Source of the DNA: Candidatus Pacebacteria bacterium CG_4_9_14_0_2_um_filter_40_15
GTDB lineage: Bacteria > Patescibacteriota > Microgenomatia > UBA1400 > PJMF01
DNA: 64,000 nt
Reading direction: 5' to 3'
NCBI GenBank assembly: GCA_002788675.1
Contig: PFRS01000007.1
Span: 270-64,269, forward strand
Below are positions 939 to 55,266 of the stretch, piece after piece. Numbering within the stretch: the stretch's first letter is position 1; each line of letters opens with the position of its first letter. The translations under genes were made by a program, and so were the position numbers. The notes beneath the pieces are model-generated. The model was not told the origin of the DNA. It was given only the letters and a program-made list of their open reading frames with translations, and made no database searches.

Positions 939-1140
939 TTCTTTATTGGAAAGATTTTATGCATATACTTGATGAGCATAGTAGAGTGAAGCCAGGGGTG
1001 TTTATTTTGAAATAATTATTGGTATATGTCGGCCGTGTGGGAAGATGTTGGAACTTTTTTAAAGATTAATTCTAAAAAATCCGCAACAAATTTGAACAAT
1101 GTTTAGATATATAGTGTTTTATACATTTCATATATAATCT

Positions 1141-2073: not shown

Positions 2074-2123
2074 ATAAATATTTTATTTTGCAGGTTTGTA
2101 TAAAAATGAATTTATATAGTACA

Positions 2124-2283
2124 TGTCGGGGAAACAGGACTCCTCGCTCGCTTCGCTCACTGCGGGATGCTCGTACTGTAGGAGGCTTACGCAATTTATA
2201 ACTCGCATAGCGACCCATAGGTTCAATCCTTTGCTTGCTCCAATACACAAAAAAACCCACCAAAAGGTGGATTTTTTCGTGTG
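2124..2283 (-). repeat. mini-element downstream of tRNA-Pro. Displaced copy of the tRNA-Pro 3' end (2124-2142, 19/19 identical to 2282-2300) is fused to the conserved motif CTCGCTTCGCTCAC (2147-2160, reverse complement of GTGAGCGAAGCGAG)
   Basis: Direct sequence comparison. The duplicated block starts at G57 of the T-loop and runs through the discriminator. The same 14-mer and the same architecture recur after tRNA-Gly. Confidence 0.7.
2250..2278. terminator. bidirectional hairpin plus T/A tracts (cccacc-aaaa-ggtgg-tttttt), terminates tRNA-Pro
   Basis: GC stem CCACC/GGTGG flanked by an A-run and a T-run, immediately 3' of tRNA-Pro on the minus strand. Confidence 0.6.
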
Positions 2284-2357
2284 TCGGGGAAACAGGACTC
2301 GAACCTGCGACCTCACGGTCCCAAACCGCGCACTCTAGCCATCTGAGCTATTCCCCG
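2284..2357 (-). tRNA. tRNA-Pro (anticodon TGG)
   Basis: Reverse complement folds as a cloverleaf. Acceptor stem CGGGGAA/TTCCCCG. D arm GCTC-AGATGGCTA-GAGT. Anticodon stem CGCGG/CCGTG with loop TTTGGGA. T arm GCAGG-TTCGAGT-CCTGT. Discriminator A. No encoded CCA. Confidence 0.85.
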
Positions 2358-2764: not shown

Positions 2765-5700
2765 ATGACTATGGATTCACGGCCTACGGCCGTACATACG
2801 ATCGAAAATACTCCGCCTCCTCCTCAAGAGCAGGAACATCCATTTATGGTTGGTGAACAACTTGGTGTTCTAAAGATTAATAATCCAGGTAGTGTTTTTG
2901 ATGGAATGGAGATTCCAATTCCAAGACAAAGACGAGAATTAAGTCGCAATGTGTCTGAAGCTTTGCTTTCTGAAATGCAGAATCCCGTACAACAACTCTT
3001 GCAGTTAGTGGAGAATGTAACCAATCAATCATTTGCACAAGGAGCTAAAACATATCAAGGTGAAAACAGAAAAATTCTCATACATAAGATACTTGAAAAC
3101 TTGTCTGATTCTCCTAAGTATAGAAAGCTACTCGAAAAATTTGCTAGTGGGAGCAGTGAATTTTCAAAAATAGTTATAAATGCGACTGTGTATATGTTAA
3201 GTAATACCAATTACTTGAAGGCAATTATTGGATTTGTTGTTGATGGTTGGGATAGTTCAAGAGCACCTCGAAGAATTCAAGACTTTGAGGATGCTATGCG
3301 CGAGGCAAGTTGGCAGGTGCAACAAGAACGCGATCCTGGTTTTTACCAGCAAACGCAAGCAGGACACTTTTCAGTTCAAACAGTACTTAATCCAGCAGTG
3401 GCATATGATCTTTTTTCATTTTATCAACTCACACAGCAGACAGAAACAGTGGGCTTAGTGCCCACTGAATCATTTGAATCTGATCATCCAAAGCAAATCC
3501 GACCAGGACAAGATGAAGAAGAGTATAAAAAAGAACAACTCGCACATTTAGAAAGATTGGAGGCTGAAAAGGCTGCTCGAGATGCTGCTGCTGCGCGTCC
3601 ACTTGCTCGTATAAAAAAGAAGCTGCAAGAGGCTGCTAATACATTTTCAGACCAGCAAAAGGAATTTCCTGAAGAGCCAGTGAGACAGGTTACATCTGAA
3701 GAATTTGAAGCAAAAGCTGCTGAGCGTCAACTTTTTGCAAATACCGAAAAACTTAATCGACTGGAAAAGGATTTTAGATCTGCAGTAGTGGGAGTAACCA
3801 TTGCAAATAAGATTGAGCTAATGCGAGAAGCAGCAGAGTTTCTCGAAACAGATTACGGTGAAGAAAAAGCAACACTCACAAGATATGAGCGACTTACAAA
3901 AAAATTAAAAGCAAAGTTATCTGGTAGACATTTTAGTCCTGAGTCAGCCGAAGCATTTTTACGATTACAAGAAGTGTATAAGTTTGATCCAAATAGTGAG
4001 GCTGTTAACCGATTACTTGATCAAGAATTTGGTTTAGATCAGGCTGAGATTACTGCATTAAATAGCACCAGAAATGGACGTAAAGATCTTGAAAAATTAA
4101 TCAGACGTGCTCGTGCAATAGTTACGCATGGTTTTACTAGAGATACCCAACATGGGATTGCTGAAGTTACTTTTGGTAAGGAACCAAGGCATTTTGTTAT
4201 ACTTGTTCATGGAGCACCTTACAAAATTGAATATTACAATAAGGATGGCTTTATAACTCAAGAATTGTTGATCAGAGCAGTACAAAATCTCGAATATACA
4301 CATGCTGATCAAAGTAAAGATCCAGAAGTACTCAAACAGAGACAAGTCATAGCTTCAATCTGGACTGAGTTAAGTTACAATCCTAAAAAAAATGAAATAG
4401 TAACTGATCCTCTTTTGTTAGACCAATTTATCAAAAAGTTTTTGAGGTCTGATTTAAAAAATACATCACAAGTTACACTGCAAATTGCTGATTCAATCAG
4501 GGCATTAATAAGTGCAGACTTTTCTGTCTCTGTGGGGGCAGATGAAGTTCCAGCTTTTGGAGCTGACGATCAAGCTGGGGAAATGCTCTCGTTGGTATTT
4601 GGAGGACAGCACATTGATATTTCAGATAATATTGGGGCGTTTTGTCAGCAATTTCTTGACTCTGATGAGATGAATAATAAACGAACACTATCAAACATTG
4701 CAAATTTTTTTGAAAAAGATAGTTGGGCGACACAATTACTTATAAAGATTAATTCACAATTTGATCATGGTTTGACTGATGGACGGGAAGCTCAAGAGAC
4801 TAATGCGGAATTATTACTGAGGTTATCTCAATATTTGGTAAGTGTGGGCAATGTTGCAGCAAGTAGAAAGATACTTCCAGAAGCACTACTCGCACAAAGT
4901 CTGAGTCTTGGTGTAATTGATGGTGAAATGGTGTTTGATGATGAAAAGGTTATTGCCGAGAATGTACACGAGTACAGTTATTCACTTCCGGACTTGCCCG
5001 AAGCCCTCGTTAACTCACCCAAAGCGTTAACTAAGGAGCTTGATAGAAGTGTCACTATTACTATGGAGAATGAGCTTAGAGATCGACTTGAAGCTATTGA
5101 TAGCATGAGTCTTAGGGAACTTTTTGACGGGGCAGGTACAATGGTTGATCGATTTGTAAATGTAACTGTTGATGTTCAGATGAATGCTATTAGAGAACCT
5201 GCATGGCAAGAACACTTGCGCTTGAATCCAGATATTCCATCCAAGAGTCCCAGGAAAATACAAGTTATCAAAGATACATTTTATATAGATTTGGAGACTG
5301 GTCTTCGAGACACAGTTAAAATTTTTCTAAATGGGGATCATGAGCTCATGAAGGAAGTACAAGAAAAATTACAGCTCAAAAAATATGATTTCTCAGCTGC
5401 GGCTCGGCTGTACGGGGTTGCTGATGTTTCAAAAATTTCTGCTGTTGAATATAGTCGATTTATGGCAGATCGTACTACATTGGCAGGAGAAAGCGATACA
5501 TTTAACATCCTTGCTCAATATGAACAAATTAATACTGTTGCACGAAAAGTAAAACGTAGGCTAACTGCAATTCAAAAACAAAAAAAAGAGGCTGAACATA
5601 CAAGAGATACTATTAGTGATGTTCTTGATATCAAGACTGTTTATGATGAGACTTACGCACGACTTAATTCAACTGAAGAGCAAGATTTATTACAGTTGTT

Positions 5701-6898
5701 AGATGAAATGAATGCGGCCCTTAAGCAAATTAATTTGGTGCTGACTCGATGTCTTTATGATAAAGAATTGTTTGCTACCGATGCCTCTGGGTCAGTGAGA
5801 GAAAGTGATCCGATTATAGCTCAAGTCCACAACCTACAATTAAACAGAATTAGTTCGGTCACCGCAATTCATTATGCTCAACTTATGGCGGACATGATGA
5901 ACATGATGAGTGATGATATGAGGCCTGCATTGCGTAGATTACCCACATCACGTAACATTGCTGAAATTCCTACGAGTAGGCTCGATTTTCACACTATGAC
6001 TGGGTATGCAGAAACAATGTTAAGTATGCAAAGCTTTGCAGAGATTTGGGCTGACACAAATAAAGATAGAACGGATGGGAAAGCACAAGTGCTTGAAGCA
6101 TTTAAGGATATAATTCAAGATTTTGTTGTAAATTATAGTATGCAGTTTCAAATAGGTGTTGATCAGGCACGAAAGCAAGTCAGTGATACGTCAGTATTAT
6201 CTGCTGGTACTAACAGATTTACTCAGTGGTTACTGGAAGTTTCTTTGCAATACACGGGTCTCACCGGGGTACTGGCTCAACAGCGCACGGGCAATATGAT
6301 TTCAGTGGTAGATTCAAATCCCGGTGTTGCTGGAGGGTATAGTTTACTGAGTCTGAGTGAAGGAGAGATGAGTGAAGCCGAGCATCTTACTGCGGTTTTA
6401 AATAGCAGCCATGGTCAAGATTCATTTCATACAGCTGGATCAAAAAATGTTGGTACTGCTATGGGAGTTACTCGAGTACACGATGGGGAAAATTCTCATT
6501 ATGCCTTTAAAGGTCGTAAGGCTGTCACTGATCAGCATCTAGATCAAATTGCCATGGCCATGCTGGGAGTAGAACGAAATGTAGCACGAGAATTAGTTGA
6601 AGGTATAAAACCTGGGTATTACTTTAATCAGCTGACTGTGCCGCAGCGCCGAGAGGCTCTCCATACAGCTAAGAGTGAGCTGGTTGAACAAACTAAATCT
6701 ATGTATTACTGGTACTTCTTTATTAACGTTATTACTAAAATGGATATGAATCAGGTGGGAACAAGGTATGATGAATGGGTGGTATCGGAAAGTTCACTCT
6801 CATTTATTAAATATGTTATGGAACAGGAACTGCCAAAGTATAACTTGAGTGAAGAGGCTATGGATTTCTATCAAAATGGTCCTAGATTGAACGCCTAG
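2765..6898 (+). CDS. giant orphan protein (1377 aa). No signal peptide, no P-loop, coiled-coil rich, no recognisable domain
   Basis: Single 4.1-kb ORF with no sizeable competing ORFs. Flanked by tRNA-Leu upstream and tRNA-Gly 30 bp downstream. Confidence 0.7.
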   Translation: MTMDSRPTAVHTIENTPPPPQEQEHPFMVGEQLGVLKINNPGSVFDGMEIPIPRQRRELSRNVSEALLSEMQNPVQQLLQLVENVTNQSFAQGAKTYQGENRKILIHKILENLSDSPKYRKLLEKFASGSSEFSKIVINATVYMLSNTNYLKAIIGFVVDGWDSSRAPRRIQDFEDAMREASWQVQQERDPGFYQQTQAGHFSVQTVLNPAVAYDLFSFYQLTQQTETVGLVPTESFESDHPKQIRPGQDEEEYKKEQLAHLERLEAEKAARDAAAARPLARIKKKLQEAANTFSDQQKEFPEEPVRQVTSEEFEAKAAERQLFANTEKLNRLEKDFRSAVVGVTIANKIELMREAAEFLETDYGEEKATLTRYERLTKKLKAKLSGRHFSPESAEAFLRLQEVYKFDPNSEAVNRLLDQEFGLDQAEITALNSTRNGRKDLEKLIRRARAIVTHGFTRDTQHGIAEVTFGKEPRHFVILVHGAPYKIEYYNKDGFITQELLIRAVQNLEYTHADQSKDPEVLKQRQVIASIWTELSYNPKKNEIVTDPLLLDQFIKKFLRSDLKNTSQVTLQIADSIRALISADFSVSVGADEVPAFGADDQAGEMLSLVFGGQHIDISDNIGAFCQQFLDSDEMNNKRTLSNIANFFEKDSWATQLLIKINSQFDHGLTDGREAQETNAELLLRLSQYLVSVGNVAASRKILPEALLAQSLSLGVIDGEMVFDDEKVIAENVHEYSYSLPDLPEALVNSPKALTKELDRSVTITMENELRDRLEAIDSMSLRELFDGAGTMVDRFVNVTVDVQMNAIREPAWQEHLRLNPDIPSKSPRKIQVIKDTFYIDLETGLRDTVKIFLNGDHELMKEVQEKLQLKKYDFSAAARLYGVADVSKISAVEYSRFMADRTTLAGESDTFNILAQYEQINTVARKVKRRLTAIQKQKKEAEHTRDTISDVLDIKTVYDETYARLNSTEEQDLLQLLDEMNAALKQINLVLTRCLYDKELFATDASGSVRESDPIIAQVHNLQLNRISSVTAIHYAQLMADMMNMMSDDMRPALRRLPTSRNIAEIPTSRLDFHTMTGYAETMLSMQSFAEIWADTNKDRTDGKAQVLEAFKDIIQDFVVNYSMQFQIGVDQARKQVSDTSVLSAGTNRFTQWLLEVSLQYTGLTGVLAQQRTGNMISVVDSNPGVAGGYSLLSLSEGEMSEAEHLTAVLNSSHGQDSFHTAGSKNVGTAMGVTRVHDGENSHYAFKGRKAVTDQHLDQIAMAMLGVERNVARELVEGIKPGYYFNQLTVPQRREALHTAKSELVEQTKSMYYWYFFINVITKMDMNQVGTRYDEWVVSESSLSFIKYVMEQELPKYNLSEEAMDFYQNGPRLNA

Positions 6899-6927: not shown

Positions 6928-6999
6928 GCGGGTATAGTACAACGGCTAGTATGACTGCCTTCCAAGCAGTAGATGGCGGTTCGATTCCGCTTACCCGCT
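6928..6999 (+). tRNA. tRNA-Gly (anticodon TCC)
   Basis: Acceptor GCGGGTA/TACCCGC. D stem GTAC/GTAT. Anticodon stem ACTGC/GCAGT with loop CTTCCAA. T arm GGCGG-TTCGATT-CCGC. Discriminator T. Confidence 0.85.
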
Positions 7000-7201
7000 C
7001 AGAAATGAAAATAGGCCGTCAGGCCTCTTTTTATTTCTGAATGGTGTAGATACGGAACTAATCTAGCGAGATGAATATCGAGCTAAGTTCTGACGGAGAG
7101 TGCGATAGCACCCGCCTAATGCATGTGAGCGAAGCGAGTCGTAGATTCCGCTTACCCGCTCAGAAAATAAAAAAGGCCGTGAGGCCTGTTTTTATTTTAG
7201 A
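7000..7201 (+). repeat. mini-element downstream of tRNA-Gly. About 103 bp of unique sequence (7041-7143) ends in GTGAGCGAAGCGAG (7125-7138). It is followed by a ~58-bp imperfect direct repeat (7144-7201) of the tRNA-Gly 3' end plus its terminator (6983-7040)
   Basis: 23/23 identity between 6983-7005 and 7144-7166. The second hairpin ggccgtgaggcc + tttttatttt is a near copy of the first with compensatory changes. Confidence 0.75.
7011..7040 (+). terminator. rho-independent terminator after tRNA-Gly (aggccgtcaggcct + ctttttatttc)
   Basis: Perfect GC hairpin followed by a T-run. Confidence 0.65.
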
Positions 7202-7914
7202 AGTTCTAACACTTTTTCTTCTGGCAGCTCAATGTATTTTTCACCATCTAAGTCACCAATATCAAATGGTCCCATTTTTGTGCGAACAAGTTCAATAGTG
7301 TCGTATCCTACTCTCTCAGTCATACGGCGAATTTGTCTGTTTCTGCCTTCTGTAATGGTTATTTCAATCCAGGTTTGGTTTTCTTCATGTGACAAAACAG
7401 TAACCTCTGCTGGTTTTGTGTAGCCATCTTTGAGTTTGACGCCTCTTCTGAGGTGATCAAGCGCTAAATTGGTGGGTTTACTACTGAGAAGAACTTCATA
7501 GGTTTTTGCTATTTCGTATCTTGGGTGAGTAAGTGTGTGAGCTAGCTCTCCATTATTGGTAACTAGCATAAGGCCTTCACTCTCTTGGTCAAGTCGTCCA
7601 ACTGGATAAACGCGTTCAGTTATTTTTGGTATGAGTTCAAGAACAGTTTTTCTGCCAACTTCATCTGAAGTAGTTGAAATATATCCCACTGGTTTATTTA
7701 TCAGAAAATAACGATGTTTTTGAGGTGCTGAGATAGGTTTTCCGTCGATTGAAACTTTGTCTTTGTGAGGGTTTACGCGTTGACCAATTTTTGCAACAGA
7801 ACCATTTACTGTTACGACTCCAGTTTCAATAAGAGCCTCGGATTTTCTTCGTGAAGCAATGCCAGCTCTAGCAAGGAAGAGTTGCAGCTTGATTGTTGAT
7901 GTATTGCTCGTCAT
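7192..7914 (-). CDS. 16S/23S rRNA pseudouridine synthase, RsuA/RluB family (S4 domain + PseudoU_synth_2)
   Basis: N-terminal S4-like RNA-binding region plus the catalytic motif region YPVGRLDQESEGLMLVTNNGELAH, typical of the RluB/RsuA family. Confidence 0.85.
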   Translation of the reverse strand: MTSNTSTIKLQLFLARAGIASRRKSEALIETGVVTVNGSVAKIGQRVNPHKDKVSIDGKPISAPQKHRYFLINKPVGYISTTSDEVGRKTVLELIPKITERVYPVGRLDQESEGLMLVTNNGELAHTLTHPRYEIAKTYEVLLSSKPTNLALDHLRRGVKLKDGYTKPAEVTVLSHEENQTWIEITITEGRNRQIRRMTERVGYDTIELVRTKMGPFDIGDLDGEKYIELPEEKVLELLK

Positions 7915-7930
7915 AATATGTTCCTGTTGT

Positions 7931-8608
7931 ATGAAAAAAACACTTATTATCTCTGATCTTCACTTAAATAATAGCTTCGATAGAGAATTATCGCATTATA
8001 TCGCGAATTTAGTCAGATCTGTTGACCAAGTTATAATCAATGGGGACTTTTGGGATCACTATATTTGTAGTTTTGATGAGTTTGTTGCATCTGAATGGAA
8101 TCAGCTCTTTCCTATTCTTAGAGAAAAAAATGCCATATTTATATATGGTAATCATGATAAGGCTGCCTTTTCAGATGAACGTGTAACCTTCTTTAGTGCA
8201 AAGCAAGTTGTTGAATACACACTTCACTCGGGTGATAAACGTTTCATTATTGAGCATGGAAATCGAATCGCACCTGAAATGGATGATAAACATCCAACAC
8301 TTGCAAATCTATTTGATAGATTTTATCCTCGATTTTATTTTTACATGATGAAGGATCTGTGGGCAACACGATTTATTCATAGAAAATTTATGTATCCAAA
8401 GCAAGAAAAACTTGATGTCATCTTACAGAGATATTTCTCTCGACTAGATGATGCCTCTGTAGATGGCTACATTTGTGGTCACTCACATATATTTGCTGCA
8501 TCACCGACTTTTAAATATTATAATTCTGGTTACTTTTTTGCAGGTGAAGCGCACTATCTTATTATTGAAGATGGTACTATCTCAAGACATTCTGAGTTTT
8601 ATTGGTAG
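7931..8608 (+). CDS. calcineurin-like metallophosphoesterase (YfcE/LpxH-like)
   Basis: Motifs ISDLHL, INGDFWD and YGNHD. The ORF track starts at 7859 and overlaps the upstream gene. The start is more likely the ATG at 7931 (MKKTLIISDLHL). Confidence 0.7.
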   Translation: MKKTLIISDLHLNNSFDRELSHYIANLVRSVDQVIINGDFWDHYICSFDEFVASEWNQLFPILREKNAIFIYGNHDKAAFSDERVTFFSAKQVVEYTLHSGDKRFIIEHGNRIAPEMDDKHPTLANLFDRFYPRFYFYMMKDLWATRFIHRKFMYPKQEKLDVILQRYFSRLDDASVDGYICGHSHIFAASPTFKYYNSGYFFAGEAHYLIIEDGTISRHSEFYW

Positions 8609-21797: not shown

Positions 21798-22145
21798 CTA
21801 TAGTTTTGAAATTCGTTTAATTATAAAGAGTGCAATTTTCCACAAAAGTTTAAATGGTAACGTAATGAGTGTCCATGCAAGCGGCACGCGATCATCTTCT
21901 CCTCTTATCCATGTAGAAACCACCAGATATTTTTTTTCAGCTGGTAAATATGAAGCTACTACAAAATGGCGTCTTCCATTAATTGTTTTAATATATCGTT
22001 TCGATTGTTTTTGCTCAGATTTTACTGATTCAGGGTATGTAATAGTTTCCCATACTGAGTGATCAGCTATGCTGCGGAGCGCCATGCGCTCCGCAGCATG
22101 CTTTGTAAAGACAATATTTTTATATGTTCGTTGATGTGATGCCAT
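21798..22145 (-). CDS. DUF4258-like small protein
   Basis: N-terminal motif FTKHAAERMALRSI is characteristic of DUF4258. Hydrophobic C-terminus. Contains a 14-bp perfect palindrome. Confidence 0.4.
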   Translation of the reverse strand: MASHQRTYKNIVFTKHAAERMALRSIADHSVWETITYPESVKSEQKQSKRYIKTINGRRHFVVASYLPAEKKYLVVSTWIRGEDDRVPLAWTLITLPFKLLWKIALFIIKRISKL

Positions 22146-55245: not shown

Positions 55246-55266
55246 GCGGAGCGCATTGCGCTCCGC
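55246..55266 (-). terminator. GC-rich palindrome gcggagcgc-att-gcgctccgc, preceded on the plus strand by an A-run (terminator for the minus-strand small ORF; also caps malic enzyme)
   Basis: 9-bp perfect stem; a U-run follows in minus-strand sense. Confidence 0.55.

What the first reader, a model, noticed from the sequence alone, without database searches (positions are those of the whole stretch)
2122..2357. The same architecture lies downstream of tRNA-Pro: conserved 14-mer fused to a displaced tRNA-Pro 3' end
On the minus strand, tRNA-Pro (2284-2357) is followed by its terminator and about 140 bp. Next come GTGAGCGAAGCGAG(CGAG), present as the reverse complement at 2143-2160, and then a 19-nt perfect copy of the tRNA-Pro 3' end (2124-2142 equals 2282-2300). 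This copy again starts at G57 of the T-loop. The intervening sequence shows patchy similarity to the Gly-associated core (GCGAG-T-AA-T...TAAG, and CCCGC before the 14-mer). These are two members of one element family that target different tRNAs at the same structural position.
Basis: seen in the sequence. Interest (0 to 1): 0.75.

Follow-up and report, generated by a model that had tools for sequence, protein, structure and literature searches.

The report
Short cassette modules stacked behind tRNA genes
Behind two tRNA genes of an uncultured Patescibacteria bacterium sit ~160-base non-coding inserts that rebuild the tRNA's end, add a terminator and push the original tRNA end downstream; relatives show 0 to 3 of them, and module-related sequence also closes gene-carrying stretches, so they look like a small, undescribed cassette-insertion system.

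Summary
A perfect 19-nt copy of the tRNA-Pro 3' end (2124-2142 = 2282-2300) lies 158 nt downstream, preceded by GTGAGCGAAGCGAG. tRNA-Gly has the same layout (161-nt spacing, 59-nt repeat).

- The organism is a Patescibacteria MAG.
- At tRNA-Pro, relatives carry 0, 1, 1 or 3 homologous modules. Each has a terminator, a ~105-nt core and a short hairpin, and abuts a perfect 18-nt tRNA end.
- In one relative a complete module closes a two-gene interval. In another, a truncated core follows an APH-like gene.
- The Gly insert exists only in the window species.

This looks like serial insertion at the tRNA T-loop (G57|A58). No recombinase was found.

- The 14-mer is not a family hallmark: it varies between orthologues, and elsewhere it never abuts tRNA fragments.
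- The Gly and Pro cores are not detectably homologous.

The 14-mer is the tip (GCGAAGC) of a covarying hairpin. In this species the Pro copy matches, over 25 nt, a multi-copy motif upstream of genes in uncultivated phages. That motif fits the sequence rules of N4-type hairpin promoters.

The mechanism is inferred, not shown.

The parts
2283..2357 (-). tRNA-Pro(UGG), intact. Its last 18-19 nt (2282-2300) are the upstream copy of the repeat.
   Evidence: ARAGORN; Rfam tRNA model, 61.7 bits; sequence read directly.
2246..2281 (-). Intrinsic, bidirectional terminator directly after tRNA-Pro. The stem is CCACC/GGTGG at 2257-2270, with A and T runs on either side.
   Evidence: The same hairpin type follows tRNA-Pro in L227, L228 and L313.
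2167..2248 (-). Non-coding core of the B-type module.
   Evidence: A profile built from relatives' modules only finds it at E = 1e-18. With the window copy included the hit is 2248-2143 at E = 2.6e-28. It is 77-82% identical to the L227 and L228 orthologues, while four-fold sites of efp are 23-54% identical.
2142..2166 (-). Irregular hairpin CCCGC-A-GTGAGC-GAA-GCGAGC-GAGG that abuts the displaced tRNA end. It contains the 14-mer (2147-2160) and the GCGAAGC tip. It matches a phage intergenic motif over 25 nt.
   Evidence: The closing stem covaries across five modules: CG, UA and GC pairs, with 4 of 500 shuffles reaching the observed score. The inner stem is fully Watson-Crick in L228.
2124..2142 (-). 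Displaced copy of the tRNA-Pro 3' end. It is 19 nt in this genome; 18 nt (A58 to 2 nt past the discriminator) are shared across species.
   Evidence: The copy is perfect in the window, L228/L314 and L313, and has one mismatch in L227.
6928..7000 (+). tRNA-Gly(UCC), intact.
6983..7041 (+). Repeat copy A: the tRNA-Gly 3' end from G57, plus terminator A (stem 7013-7026).
7042..7124 (+). Gly-type core. It has no detectable homology to the Pro cores or to anything else searched.
7125..7143 (+). The 14-mer GTGAGCGAAGCGAG plus the linker TCGTA.
7144..7202 (+). Repeat copy B: the displaced tRNA-Gly 3' end (7144-7166, identical to copy A) plus terminator B (stem 7174-7187). It lies next to the convergent pseudouridine synthase gene (7192-7914, minus strand).
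   Evidence: The empty site in the L227 species has one terminator between tRNA-Gly and the pseudouridine synthase gene; in L230 the gene follows tRNA-Gly with no insert.

Best explanation
These are ORF-less members of a cassette-like insertion system anchored at the 3' end of tRNA genes in a small clade of Patescibacteria.

Layout of one unit:
- It begins with a copy of the tRNA's last 18-23 nt, starting at T-loop position A58. This copy completes the tRNA.
- An intrinsic terminator follows. In some relatives cargo genes also lie in the interval.
- It ends with a non-coding module of about 105 nt whose final ~25 nt form a hairpin tipped by GCGRAGC.
- That hairpin abuts the next copy of the tRNA 3' end, which is the displaced original.

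Proposed mechanism: conservative site-specific recombination within the shared 18-nt segment. One partner is a circular form of the cassette, in which hairpin and tRNA segment are joined (an attP-like site). The other is the tRNA gene (attB). A recombinase encoded elsewhere would act in trans. Repeated events, followed by unequal crossing-over between modules, build and reshuffle arrays.

What is shown:
- the repeats and their exact junction;
- intact tRNAs;
- occupied and empty sites;
- arrays of 1 to 3 modules;
- a complete module closing a two-gene interval in L314, and a truncated module core after a one-gene stretch in L319;
- sequence conservation well above neutral;
- covariation in the terminal hairpin.

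What is inferred: the circular intermediate, the recombinase, and whether the modules are still mobile or are fixed relics.

The 14-mer is only the tip of the terminal hairpin. Why it is identical to a phage motif in this species is unexplained.
For: (1) Direct repeats made of the tRNA 3' segment, with an intact tRNA at one end, at two different tRNAs.

(2) Presence and absence at syntenic sites. tRNA-Pro carries 0 modules in L230, 1 in the window, 1 in the L227/L319 species, 1 in L313, and 3 in L314. tRNA-Gly is occupied only in the window species.

(3) L314 has four perfect copies of AGTCCTGTTTCCCCGACA, spaced 120, 160 and 1314 nt apart. The 1314-nt interval holds a 112-aa gene and a GNAT gene, then a terminator, a C-type core, the hairpin TGAGCGGAGCGAG, and the repeat.

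(4) In L319 an APH-like gene downstream of the B module is followed by a truncated B-like core, E = 3e-12.

(5) Synteny between tRNA-Pro and the conserved MGMT/HhH-GPD genes differs in every species, as expected at an insertion hotspot.

(6) Modules are mosaic. The 3' 78 nt of the L313 module are about 96% identical to the third L314 module, while its 5' part resembles type A. This fits recombination between array members.

(7) The displaced 18-mer is nearly invariant: one change across all copies. The adjacent core differs by 18-23% between species, and neutral sites are near saturation.

(8) The stem that closes exactly at the junction covaries.
Against: - No integrase, transposase or other recombinase was found in the inserts, among the sampled neighbouring ORFs of the window, or in the cargo intervals. 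Only about 84 kb of the genome could be inspected, and not every ORF in it was scanned.
- Identity with the tRNA starts at A58, so the seven-base T-loop cannot be the overlap region used by classical T-loop-targeting tyrosine integrases. The geometry of the site is therefore unknown.
- No circular or excised form, and no within-species polymorphism, was seen. All strains of the window species carry identical inserts.
- The Gly insert carries a diverged copy of the resident terminator. The 59-nt repeat could equally arise from a duplication made at insertion.
- No phage or plasmid was found with the tRNA segment next to the hairpin.
- Only five genomes and two tRNAs are involved.
Confidence: 0.45

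Rival explanations
1. The module is a functional small RNA gene, or a cis-acting RNA or DNA element, kept by selection. Its 3' end copies the tRNA's acceptor and T-arm 3' strand. It might act as a processing or decoy substrate for tRNA-end enzymes, or as a stabiliser or terminator unit. In that case the arrays would reflect gene duplication, not mobility.
For: - B-type cores are 77-82% identical between species whose efp four-fold sites are 23-54% identical.
- The 18-nt tRNA segment is almost invariant.
- The terminal hairpin covaries.
- The Gly element with its tRNA segment folds better than shuffles, z = -2.5.
Against: - No Rfam family matches, even at E <= 10.
- No sigma-70-like promoter lies inside either insert, although the host's tRNA genes have clear TATAAT boxes.
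- The consensus fold is weak, -9 kcal/mol for five sequences.
- The hairpins are not exceptional thermodynamically.
- The apparent pairing of the core's 5' end with the tRNA segment is not better than shuffles in most copies.
- Module types A, B, C and Gly differ greatly, and one copy is truncated.
- This idea does not explain the empty sites or the cargo intervals.
Confidence: 0.2
2. The inserts are scars of phage or island integrations at the tRNA. Each would be the fused remains of the two attP arms after the interior was deleted. They persist only because they now supply the tRNA's 3' end and terminator, and they are no longer mobile.
For: - The layout of attL, insert and attR, and the tandem arrays, are typical of repeated integration at tRNA genes.
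- The Pro hairpin in the window species is identical over 25 nt to a motif present in 1-3 copies per fetched locus in six uncultivated phage contigs.
- One downstream module is visibly decayed.
Against: - Independent random deletions should not leave inserts of nearly the same length. The repeat spacing is 156-161 nt in five of six full-length modules.
- The cores are conserved across species far above neutral.
- No viral contig carries the Pro 18-mer. The Gly 18-mer occurs in viruses only inside complete phage tRNA-Gly(GCC) genes.
- The phage contigs that carry the motif showed no tRNA genes in the fetched parts and no integrase among the 10 ORFs scanned.
Confidence: 0.15
3. The structures arose locally by replication errors, with no mobile element. 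Slippage, template switching at the terminator hairpin, or unequal crossing-over would duplicate the tRNA 3' end and its trailer, after which the copies diverged.
For: - At tRNA-Gly the repeat includes the terminator (59 nt, 88% identical), as a local duplication would.
- Arrays of similar units evolve by unequal crossing-over, and the modules are mosaic.
Against: - The ~85-105 nt between the repeats has no counterpart in the empty sites of relatives, so new DNA was added.
- The cores are not decayed tRNA copies. Core against the tRNA 5' part gives p >= 0.35, and the tRNA covariance model finds nothing.
- The same architecture and junction arose at two unrelated tRNAs.
- Gene-carrying stretches are followed by module sequence.
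Confidence: 0.12
4. The module is an RNA scaffold with a 3' guide, like an omega-RNA or crRNA. The tRNA-derived 18-23 nt would direct a nuclease or transposase to the tRNA gene, with GGTTCG serving as the adjacent motif.
For: A scaffold followed by 18-23 nt identical to a genomic target that sits next to the invariant T-loop motif GGTTCG is formally the layout of TnpB/IscB guide RNAs and of CAST homing spacers. That comparison rests on my own knowledge.
Against: - No nuclease, transposase or cas gene lies nearby.
- There is no Rfam match to omega-RNA, HEARO or CRISPR families.
- The repeat extends past the tRNA into flanking DNA, and at Gly into the terminator. That is a signature of DNA-level duplication, not of a guide.
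- No promoter was found.
Confidence: 0.03

Closest known systems
Tandem integrative elements (prophages, genomic islands) inserted in the 3' part of tRNA genes by tyrosine integrases. Comparison from my own knowledge of the literature on tRNA integration sublocations.
   Same: The insert is flanked by direct repeats made of the tRNA 3' segment. The element supplies a replacement 3' end, so the tRNA stays intact. The crossover lies in or next to the T-loop. Arrays form at one tRNA. Relatives show empty sites.
   Different: The inserts here are 120-160 bp with no gene at all, or about 1.3 kb with two small cargo genes. No integrase is present. Identity starts at A58, so the T-loop cannot be the overlap region. 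Every unit ends in the same kind of ~105-nt non-coding module.
CIMEs (cis-mobilizable elements): att-flanked remnants of integrative elements that lack recombination genes and are mobilised in trans. Comparison from my own knowledge.
   Same: They are non-autonomous, bounded by att-type repeats, and can sit in tandem with related elements.
   Different: CIMEs are kilobase-sized deletion derivatives of known ICEs. Here no parent element or recombinase is known, and the units are about ten times smaller.
Integron gene cassettes with attC sites, and integrase-less attC clusters (CALINs). Comparison from my own knowledge.
   Same: Arrays of units, some ORF-less and some carrying one or two accessory genes (a GNAT, an APH-like kinase). 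Units end in a structured non-coding site, and a short conserved sequence marks every boundary.
   Different: The boundary sequence is a tRNA 3' end, not GTTRRRY. No R''/R' inverse core sites are present. No intI lies next to the array. The anchor is a tRNA T-loop rather than attI.
Early promoters of phage N4 read by the virion RNA polymerase (PMC4496689). This comparison concerns only the 14-mer and hairpin.
   Same: The template-strand hairpin has a three-base loop with 5' G and 3' A, closed by C:G. Purine at -11, G at -10 and G at -8 together spell 5'-GCGRAGC-3'. In the window's Pro copy and in the phage motif the template has C at +1 and a purine at -1. The phage motif occurs 1-3 times per fetched locus, three of them within 3.1 kb in L073, about 30-55 nt upstream of start codons.
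   Different: Only two Watson-Crick pairs flank the loop, followed by G.A, A.G and U.G pairs, against N4's stem of 5-7 bp. No giant polymerase gene was seen in the fetched parts of the phage contigs. The Gly copy and the orthologous Pro copies break one or more of the rules. No transcription data exist.

Membership tests
tRNA-targeting integrative elements (tyrosine-integrase type) | Insert flanked by direct repeats of the tRNA 3' segment, with an intact tRNA at one end | tested here: met
tRNA-targeting integrative elements (tyrosine-integrase type) | Empty site in related genomes | tested here: met
   tRNA-Pro is empty in L230. tRNA-Gly is empty in L227/L319, L228/L314, L313/L315 and L230.
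tRNA-targeting integrative elements (tyrosine-integrase type) | Integrase gene carried by the element | tested here: not met
   The 140-nt inserts contain no credible ORF. The neighbouring and cargo ORFs that were scanned have no recombinase domain.
tRNA-targeting integrative elements (tyrosine-integrase type) | Excision to a circular form with a rejoined att site | not testable with these tools
   This needs read-level metagenome data or an experiment.
Integron cassettes / attC | attC with inverse core and core sites (RYYYAAC ... GTTRRRY) at the cassette boundary | tested here: not met
   The boundaries read ...CGAGN|AGTCCTG. No GTTRRRY is present (sequences).
Integron cassettes / attC | Integron integrase gene next to the first cassette | tested here: not met
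   The genes scanned beside tRNA-Pro and tRNA-Gly (a 1377-aa protein with no family match and a pseudouridine synthase) show no recombinase domain. tRNA-Leu and a small unscanned ORF also lie upstream of tRNA-Pro.
MITE | Terminal inverted repeats, a fixed-length target duplication, and many dispersed copies | tested here: not met
   Complementarity between the core's 5' end and the tRNA segment is not above shuffles in most copies. The repeats are 18-19 nt at Pro and 59 nt at Gly. There are only two copies in about 84 kb, both at tRNAs.
Guide-RNA systems (TnpB/IscB omega-RNA, CRISPR or CAST homing spacer) | Adjacent effector gene and a recognisable scaffold or repeat | tested here: not met
   No such gene was found. 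No Rfam match.
tRNA pseudogene / tandem tRNA duplication | The region upstream of the copied 3' end is recognisably derived from the tRNA's 5' two-thirds | tested here: not met
   Local alignment against shuffles gives p = 0.35-0.89. The tRNA covariance model finds nothing there at E <= 10.
N4-type virion-polymerase hairpin promoter (the 14-mer only) | Template-strand loop 5'G-R-A3' closed by C:G, G at -8, C at +1 | tested here: met
   The rules come from PMC4496689. The window Pro copy and the phage motif read ...C(+1)G(-1)CAGTGA-GCGAAGC on the 14-mer strand. The Gly copy and the orthologues fail the +1 or -10 rule.
N4-type virion-polymerase hairpin promoter (the 14-mer only) | Watson-Crick stem of 5-7 bp, and a virion RNA polymerase in the phage | tested here: inconclusive
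   The stem has two Watson-Crick pairs plus non-canonical pairs. Folding energies are unremarkable. The fetched parts of the phage contigs show no large polymerase ORF in the two loci listed, but most of each contig was not held.

The most novel reading that the evidence does not exclude
This is an integron-like gene-capture system of Patescibacteria. A tRNA T-loop (G57|A58) would play the role of attI. A ~105-nt module ending in a GCGRAGC-tipped hairpin would play the role of attC. Cassettes, either empty or carrying accessory genes such as a GNAT or an APH-like kinase, would be stacked behind the tRNA by a recombinase acting in trans. Each cassette would restore the tRNA end and bring a terminator.

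A further possibility concerns the copy that is identical to a phage hairpin-promoter motif. It might be read by the phage's own polymerase on infection, giving an antisense transcript across the module that could act as a decoy or a trigger.
Probability: 0.2. Interest if true: 0.85.

Novelty: new variant of a known kind. Interest (0 to 1): 0.6.

Why it matters
If these modules are what they appear to be, streamlined, episymbiotic Patescibacteria have a compact way to stack DNA behind tRNA genes without damaging the tRNA. The units are an order of magnitude smaller than any described integrative element, and they carry no recombinase of their own.

That would add a new kind of recombination site to the short list of cassette systems (integron attC sites, Xer/dif modules). 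It would also give a handle on how accessory genes move in a phylum where mobile elements are poorly known.

The exact 25-nt match between a host module and a candidate hairpin promoter of uncultivated phages gives a sequence-level link between specific phages and a Patescibacteria host. It also gives a testable hint that N4-style hairpin promoters exist outside the known schitoviruses.

All of this rests on five genomes and two tRNAs, so it is a lead and not a result.

Tried and rejected
- **Decayed second tRNA copy.** Rejected. The core shows no significant similarity to the tRNA 5' part, and the tRNA covariance model finds nothing.
- **'Antipiece' idea.** RNAalifold paired the 5' end of the core with the tRNA segment along its whole length. 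Duplex energies against shuffles are not significant in four of five Pro modules, nor at Gly once the terminator flanks are excluded. Dropped.
- **Small ORF on the antisense strand** (MLVL...HGEP, 17 codons in two species). The changes are not concentrated at third positions, and the window copy has an in-frame stop. Not coding (my reading of the sequences).
- **Small GIY-YIG gene remnant.** This was a lead recalled from memory. The metagenome hits with GTCATTCYGR-14-mer-GGAATCC have no such ORF upstream and are a different, widespread palindromic repeat.
- **Phage attP.** No viral contig has the Pro 18-mer. The Gly 18-mer occurs only inside full phage tRNA-Gly(GCC) genes.
- **Conserved B-core block AGTACGAGCATCNCGCAG in viruses.** All five hits appear to lie in coding sequence; four are versions of one HU-like gene, by my reading of the translation. 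That number is about what I estimate for chance.
- **BLAST of both inserts against GenBank phages.** No match. The first 12 kb of the window also has no match.
- **Integrase next to tRNA-Lys.** The 400-aa ORF there is an Fpg-type glycosylase.
- **Metagenome pattern scan.** It did not return the organism's own contigs, so that collection does not hold them. It could not be used to find more copies in this genome.
- **Further relatives.** Three of the four look-ups of pseudouridine synthase homologues returned only the four species already in hand.
Full report
**Observation.**
- tRNA-Pro(UGG) lies at 2283-2357 on the minus strand.
- Its last 19 nt, GAGTCCTGTTTCCCCGACA (2282-2300), recur perfectly at 2124-2142.
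- That copy is preceded by GTGAGCGAAGCGAG-CGAG (2143-2160).
- tRNA-Gly(UCC) (6928-7000, plus strand) has the same layout, with the 14-mer at 7125-7138.
6983-7041 and 7144-7202 match at 88% over 59 nt. The first 23 nt are identical and the rest is a second copy of the terminator.
- Repeat spacing is 158 nt at Pro and 161 nt at Gly.
- The 14-mer occurs only at these two places in the window, even allowing two mismatches, against 0.14 expected.
- The inserts are identical in independent JGI and ENA assemblies of the same species, so they are not assembly artefacts.

**Organism.**
- The window is ordinary chromosome at 37-43% G+C. It carries EF-P, a PoxA-like synthetase, ATP synthase subunit a, a split transketolase and many proteins without family matches.
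- Proteins identical or close to the window's are labelled Candidatus Pacebacteria, Woesebacteria or Patescibacteria by their sources.
- One close genome is labelled 'Pseudomonadales'. Over the stretches compared, its locus has the same sequence as a Woesebacteria MAG.
- About 84 kb of this genome could be read. It holds seven tRNA genes, two of which carry inserts.

**Comparative picture at tRNA-Pro.** Synteny (tRNA-Pro, tRNA-Leu, a 1377-aa protein, tRNA-Gly) is kept in four related species.
- The most distant, L230 (EF-P 62% identical), has no insert.
- The L227/L319 species has one insert, orthologous to the window's.
- L313 has one insert of a different type.
- L228/L314 has two in tandem directly behind the tRNA.
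- A mismatch-tolerant search then found a fourth perfect copy of AGTCCTGTTTCCCCGACA in L314, 1314 nt beyond the third.
- That interval holds a 112-aa gene and a GNAT acetyltransferase gene. These are followed by a terminator, a full module with the hairpin TGAGCGGAGCGAG, and the repeat.
- A profile of all modules also found a truncated B-like core just after an APH-like kinase gene, about 1 kb beyond the insert in L319 (E = 3e-12).
- The modules fall into at least three paralogous types: A (69 nt), B (107-108 nt) and C (105-107 nt). They are mosaic. The L313 module has an A-like 5' part, while its 3' 78 nt are about 96% identical to the third L314 module.
- The gene content between tRNA-Pro and the conserved MGMT/HhH-GPD genes differs in every species.

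Taken together, this is an array-forming insertion hotspot. A complete module closes the cargo-carrying interval in L314, and a truncated one follows the cargo gene in L319.

**Comparative picture at tRNA-Gly.** Every relative has an empty site. In the L227 species a single terminator lies between tRNA-Gly and the convergent pseudouridine synthase gene, and in L230 that gene follows the tRNA with no insert. The Gly insert is therefore recent and specific to the window species.

**Junction.**
- In the relatives the base before the displaced copy is A or C, not the tRNA's G57.
- That base covaries with a base on the other side of the hairpin: C-G, U-A, G-C and U-A pairs.
- The shared segment therefore starts at A58 and runs 2 nt past the discriminator.
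- The displaced 18-mer is almost invariant, with one change in all copies.
- By contrast, B-type cores differ by 18-23% between species, and four-fold sites of efp are only 23-54% identical, which is near saturation.
- So the modules are either constrained or have spread more recently than the species diverged.

**The 14-mer.** It is not a family signature.
- Orthologous modules have GAGAGCAAAGCGAA, GCTTGCAAAGCAAG or GGGCGCAGCCC in its place.
- What is conserved is a hairpin: a four-position closing stem (N-C-G-C with G-A-G-N'), a bulged A, an inner stem of variable sequence, and a three-base loop (GAA, AAA, GGA or GCA).
- The closing stem covaries, with 4 of 500 shuffles reaching the observed score.
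- The inner stem is non-canonical in the window (U.G, G.A and A.G pairs) but fully Watson-Crick in L228.
- Nearest-neighbour folding does not rate these hairpins as unusually stable. GCGAAGC is, however, the classic extra-stable DNA mini-hairpin (PMC13037366).
- Outside this clade the 14-mer is frequent and unrelated to tRNA fragments. None of the 128 occurrences in viral contigs, and none of the 101 metagenome hits to the 14-mer-plus-T-loop pattern, has a duplicated tRNA end.
- About 30 of the metagenome hits belong to a widespread palindromic repeat, GTCATTCYGR ... GGAATCC.

**Phage link.**
- Six IMG/VR contigs carry GCAGTGAGCGAAGCGAGCGAGG one to three times in the fetched parts.
- The conserved block there is TCCTCGCTCGCTTCGCTCACTGCGGG. 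It always lies 30-55 nt upstream of a start codon on the same strand. In L073 there are three copies within 3.1 kb.
- The window's Pro hairpin is identical to this block over 25 nt. The Gly copy shares only the 14-mer.
- The published rules for phage N4 early promoters are a template-strand hairpin, a loop with 5' G and 3' A closed by C:G, purine at -11, G at -10, G at -8 and C at +1 (PMC4496689). Together these spell 5'-GCGRAGC-3'.
- On the 14-mer strand, counting from that G(-8), +1 is a C and -1 is a G. A transcript would start at the GGG of ...CACTGC|GGG.
- The phage motif and the window's Pro copy satisfy these sequence rules. The stem does not, having only two Watson-Crick pairs. The Gly copy and the orthologues also break one or more rules.
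- No large polymerase ORF was seen in the two fetched phage segments whose ORFs were listed. The phages have no close cultured relative.
- Why a host module carries an exact copy of this motif is unexplained.

**Ideas tested and dropped.**
- A decayed second tRNA.
- Homology between the Gly and Pro cores.
- A long helix between the core's 5' end and the tRNA segment.
- Known RNA families.
- Internal sigma-70 promoters.
- A small antisense ORF.
- Phage attP sites.
- Recombinase genes nearby.

**Most likely mechanism.** The pattern is what conservative site-specific recombination gives when a circular cassette carrying the tRNA segment recombines with the tRNA gene. The elements of that pattern are:
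- direct repeats of a tRNA 3' segment;
- an intact tRNA;
- a junction at one precise position in the T-loop;
- empty sites in relatives;
- arrays of units;
- module sequence closing or following cargo intervals.

Each unit would read: tRNA segment, terminator, optional cargo, core, hairpin. In the circular form the hairpin and the tRNA segment are joined. The recombinase is not in the insert and was not found, so it would act in trans. Later unequal crossing-over between modules explains the mosaics. I give this 0.45.

The steps actually shown are the anatomy, the polymorphism between species, the arrays, the cargo intervals, the conservation and the hairpin covariation. The circular form, the enzyme and present-day mobility are inferred.

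Rivals:
- a selected small RNA or cis element, 0.2;
- fixed scars of phage or island integrations, 0.15;
- local replication errors, 0.12;
- a guide-RNA system, 0.03.

**Comparison with known systems.** It works most like tandem integrative elements at tRNA genes and their non-autonomous derivatives (CIMEs). In array logic it resembles integron cassettes. It fails defining features of each:
- no integrase in the element;
- no attC core sites and no intI;
- no terminal inverted repeats or fixed target duplication;
- no effector gene.

I therefore file it as a new variant of tRNA-targeted integration, not as a member of any named family.

**Limits.**
- Only five genomes, two tRNAs and about 84 kb of the focal genome were available.
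- The genome and metagenome scans were each limited to one use.
- There are no expression data and no read-level data.

Noticed in passing
Loci L128, L129, L142, L149, L150, L184, L185, L209 and others (metagenome contigs; five are from sample Ga0111172): A widespread palindromic repeat of about 100 nt: GTCATTCYGR, a variable loop that is often GTGAGCGAAGCGAG, then CGARGAATCCCTATGATGA ... TCATAGGGATTCTTCGC ... GCTCAGAATGAC. It often occurs in clusters in intergenic DNA. It is unrelated to tRNA ends and accounts for about 30 of the 101 pattern hits.
   Followed up: partly
L073 3310-6431; L052, L223, L224, L225, L226 (IMG/VR contigs): The 26-nt motif TCCTCGCTCGCTTCGCTCACTGCGGG occurs in 1-3 copies per fetched locus, each 30-55 nt upstream of a start codon. 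It fits the sequence rules of N4-type hairpin promoters. In L223 an HNH endonuclease gene lies between two copies.
   Followed up: partly
L115 about 7880-8070 (IMG/VR contig with a tRNA cluster): GCGCTTGCGCCAGTGAGC(A/G)AAGCGAGTTGTA is repeated between consecutive phage tRNA genes, on the strand opposite to the tRNAs. This is another context in which the 14-mer recurs.
   Followed up: no
window 2765-6898 (+): A 1377-aa ORF lies between tRNA-Leu and tRNA-Gly. It has no Pfam, NCBIfam or PDB match. Only three proteins, including itself, match it in 5.8 billion sequences, and all come from this clade.
   Followed up: partly
L314 about 1615-1665 and 1010-1055 (minus strand): A ~50-nt repeat, GATCTRGAACTGAGTYATTAAACCGTTCCAYAAYTCCGACA, occurs twice downstream of the tRNA-Pro array. 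One copy sits just before the terminator of the third module. Its last 18 nt match the tRNA-Pro 3' segment at 10 of 18 positions, so it may be an older, decayed boundary.
   Followed up: no
window 7125-7166 (+): At the Gly insert the 14-mer and linker are complementary to the adjacent tRNA-Gly segment (UGAGCG with CGCUCA, AAGCG with CGCUU, AGUC with GAUU). This makes the 127-nt element fold better than shuffles (z = -2.5). Nothing comparable exists at Pro, so it may be coincidence.
   Followed up: partly
L228 (JACKFX010000001.1) versus L314 (GCA_020429005.1): A MAG labelled 'Pseudomonadales bacterium' has the same sequence, over the stretches compared at this locus, as a MAG labelled Candidatus Woesebacteria. 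L227 is labelled Patescibacteria. The Pseudomonadales labels of this clade in the genome collection look wrong.
   Followed up: no
window 6997-7002 and 7161-7166; relatives L227, L228, L313: tRNA-Gly is followed by an encoded CCA in three relatives. In the window species (both copies) and in L230 it is followed by CAG, so the encoding of the 3' CCA varies within the clade.
   Followed up: no
window 22074-22094 and 55246-55266: Two near-identical 21-nt GC-rich palindromes, GCGGAGCGCCATGCGCTCCGC and GCGGAGCGCATTGCGCTCCGC, lie 33 kb apart in an AT-rich genome.
   Followed up: no
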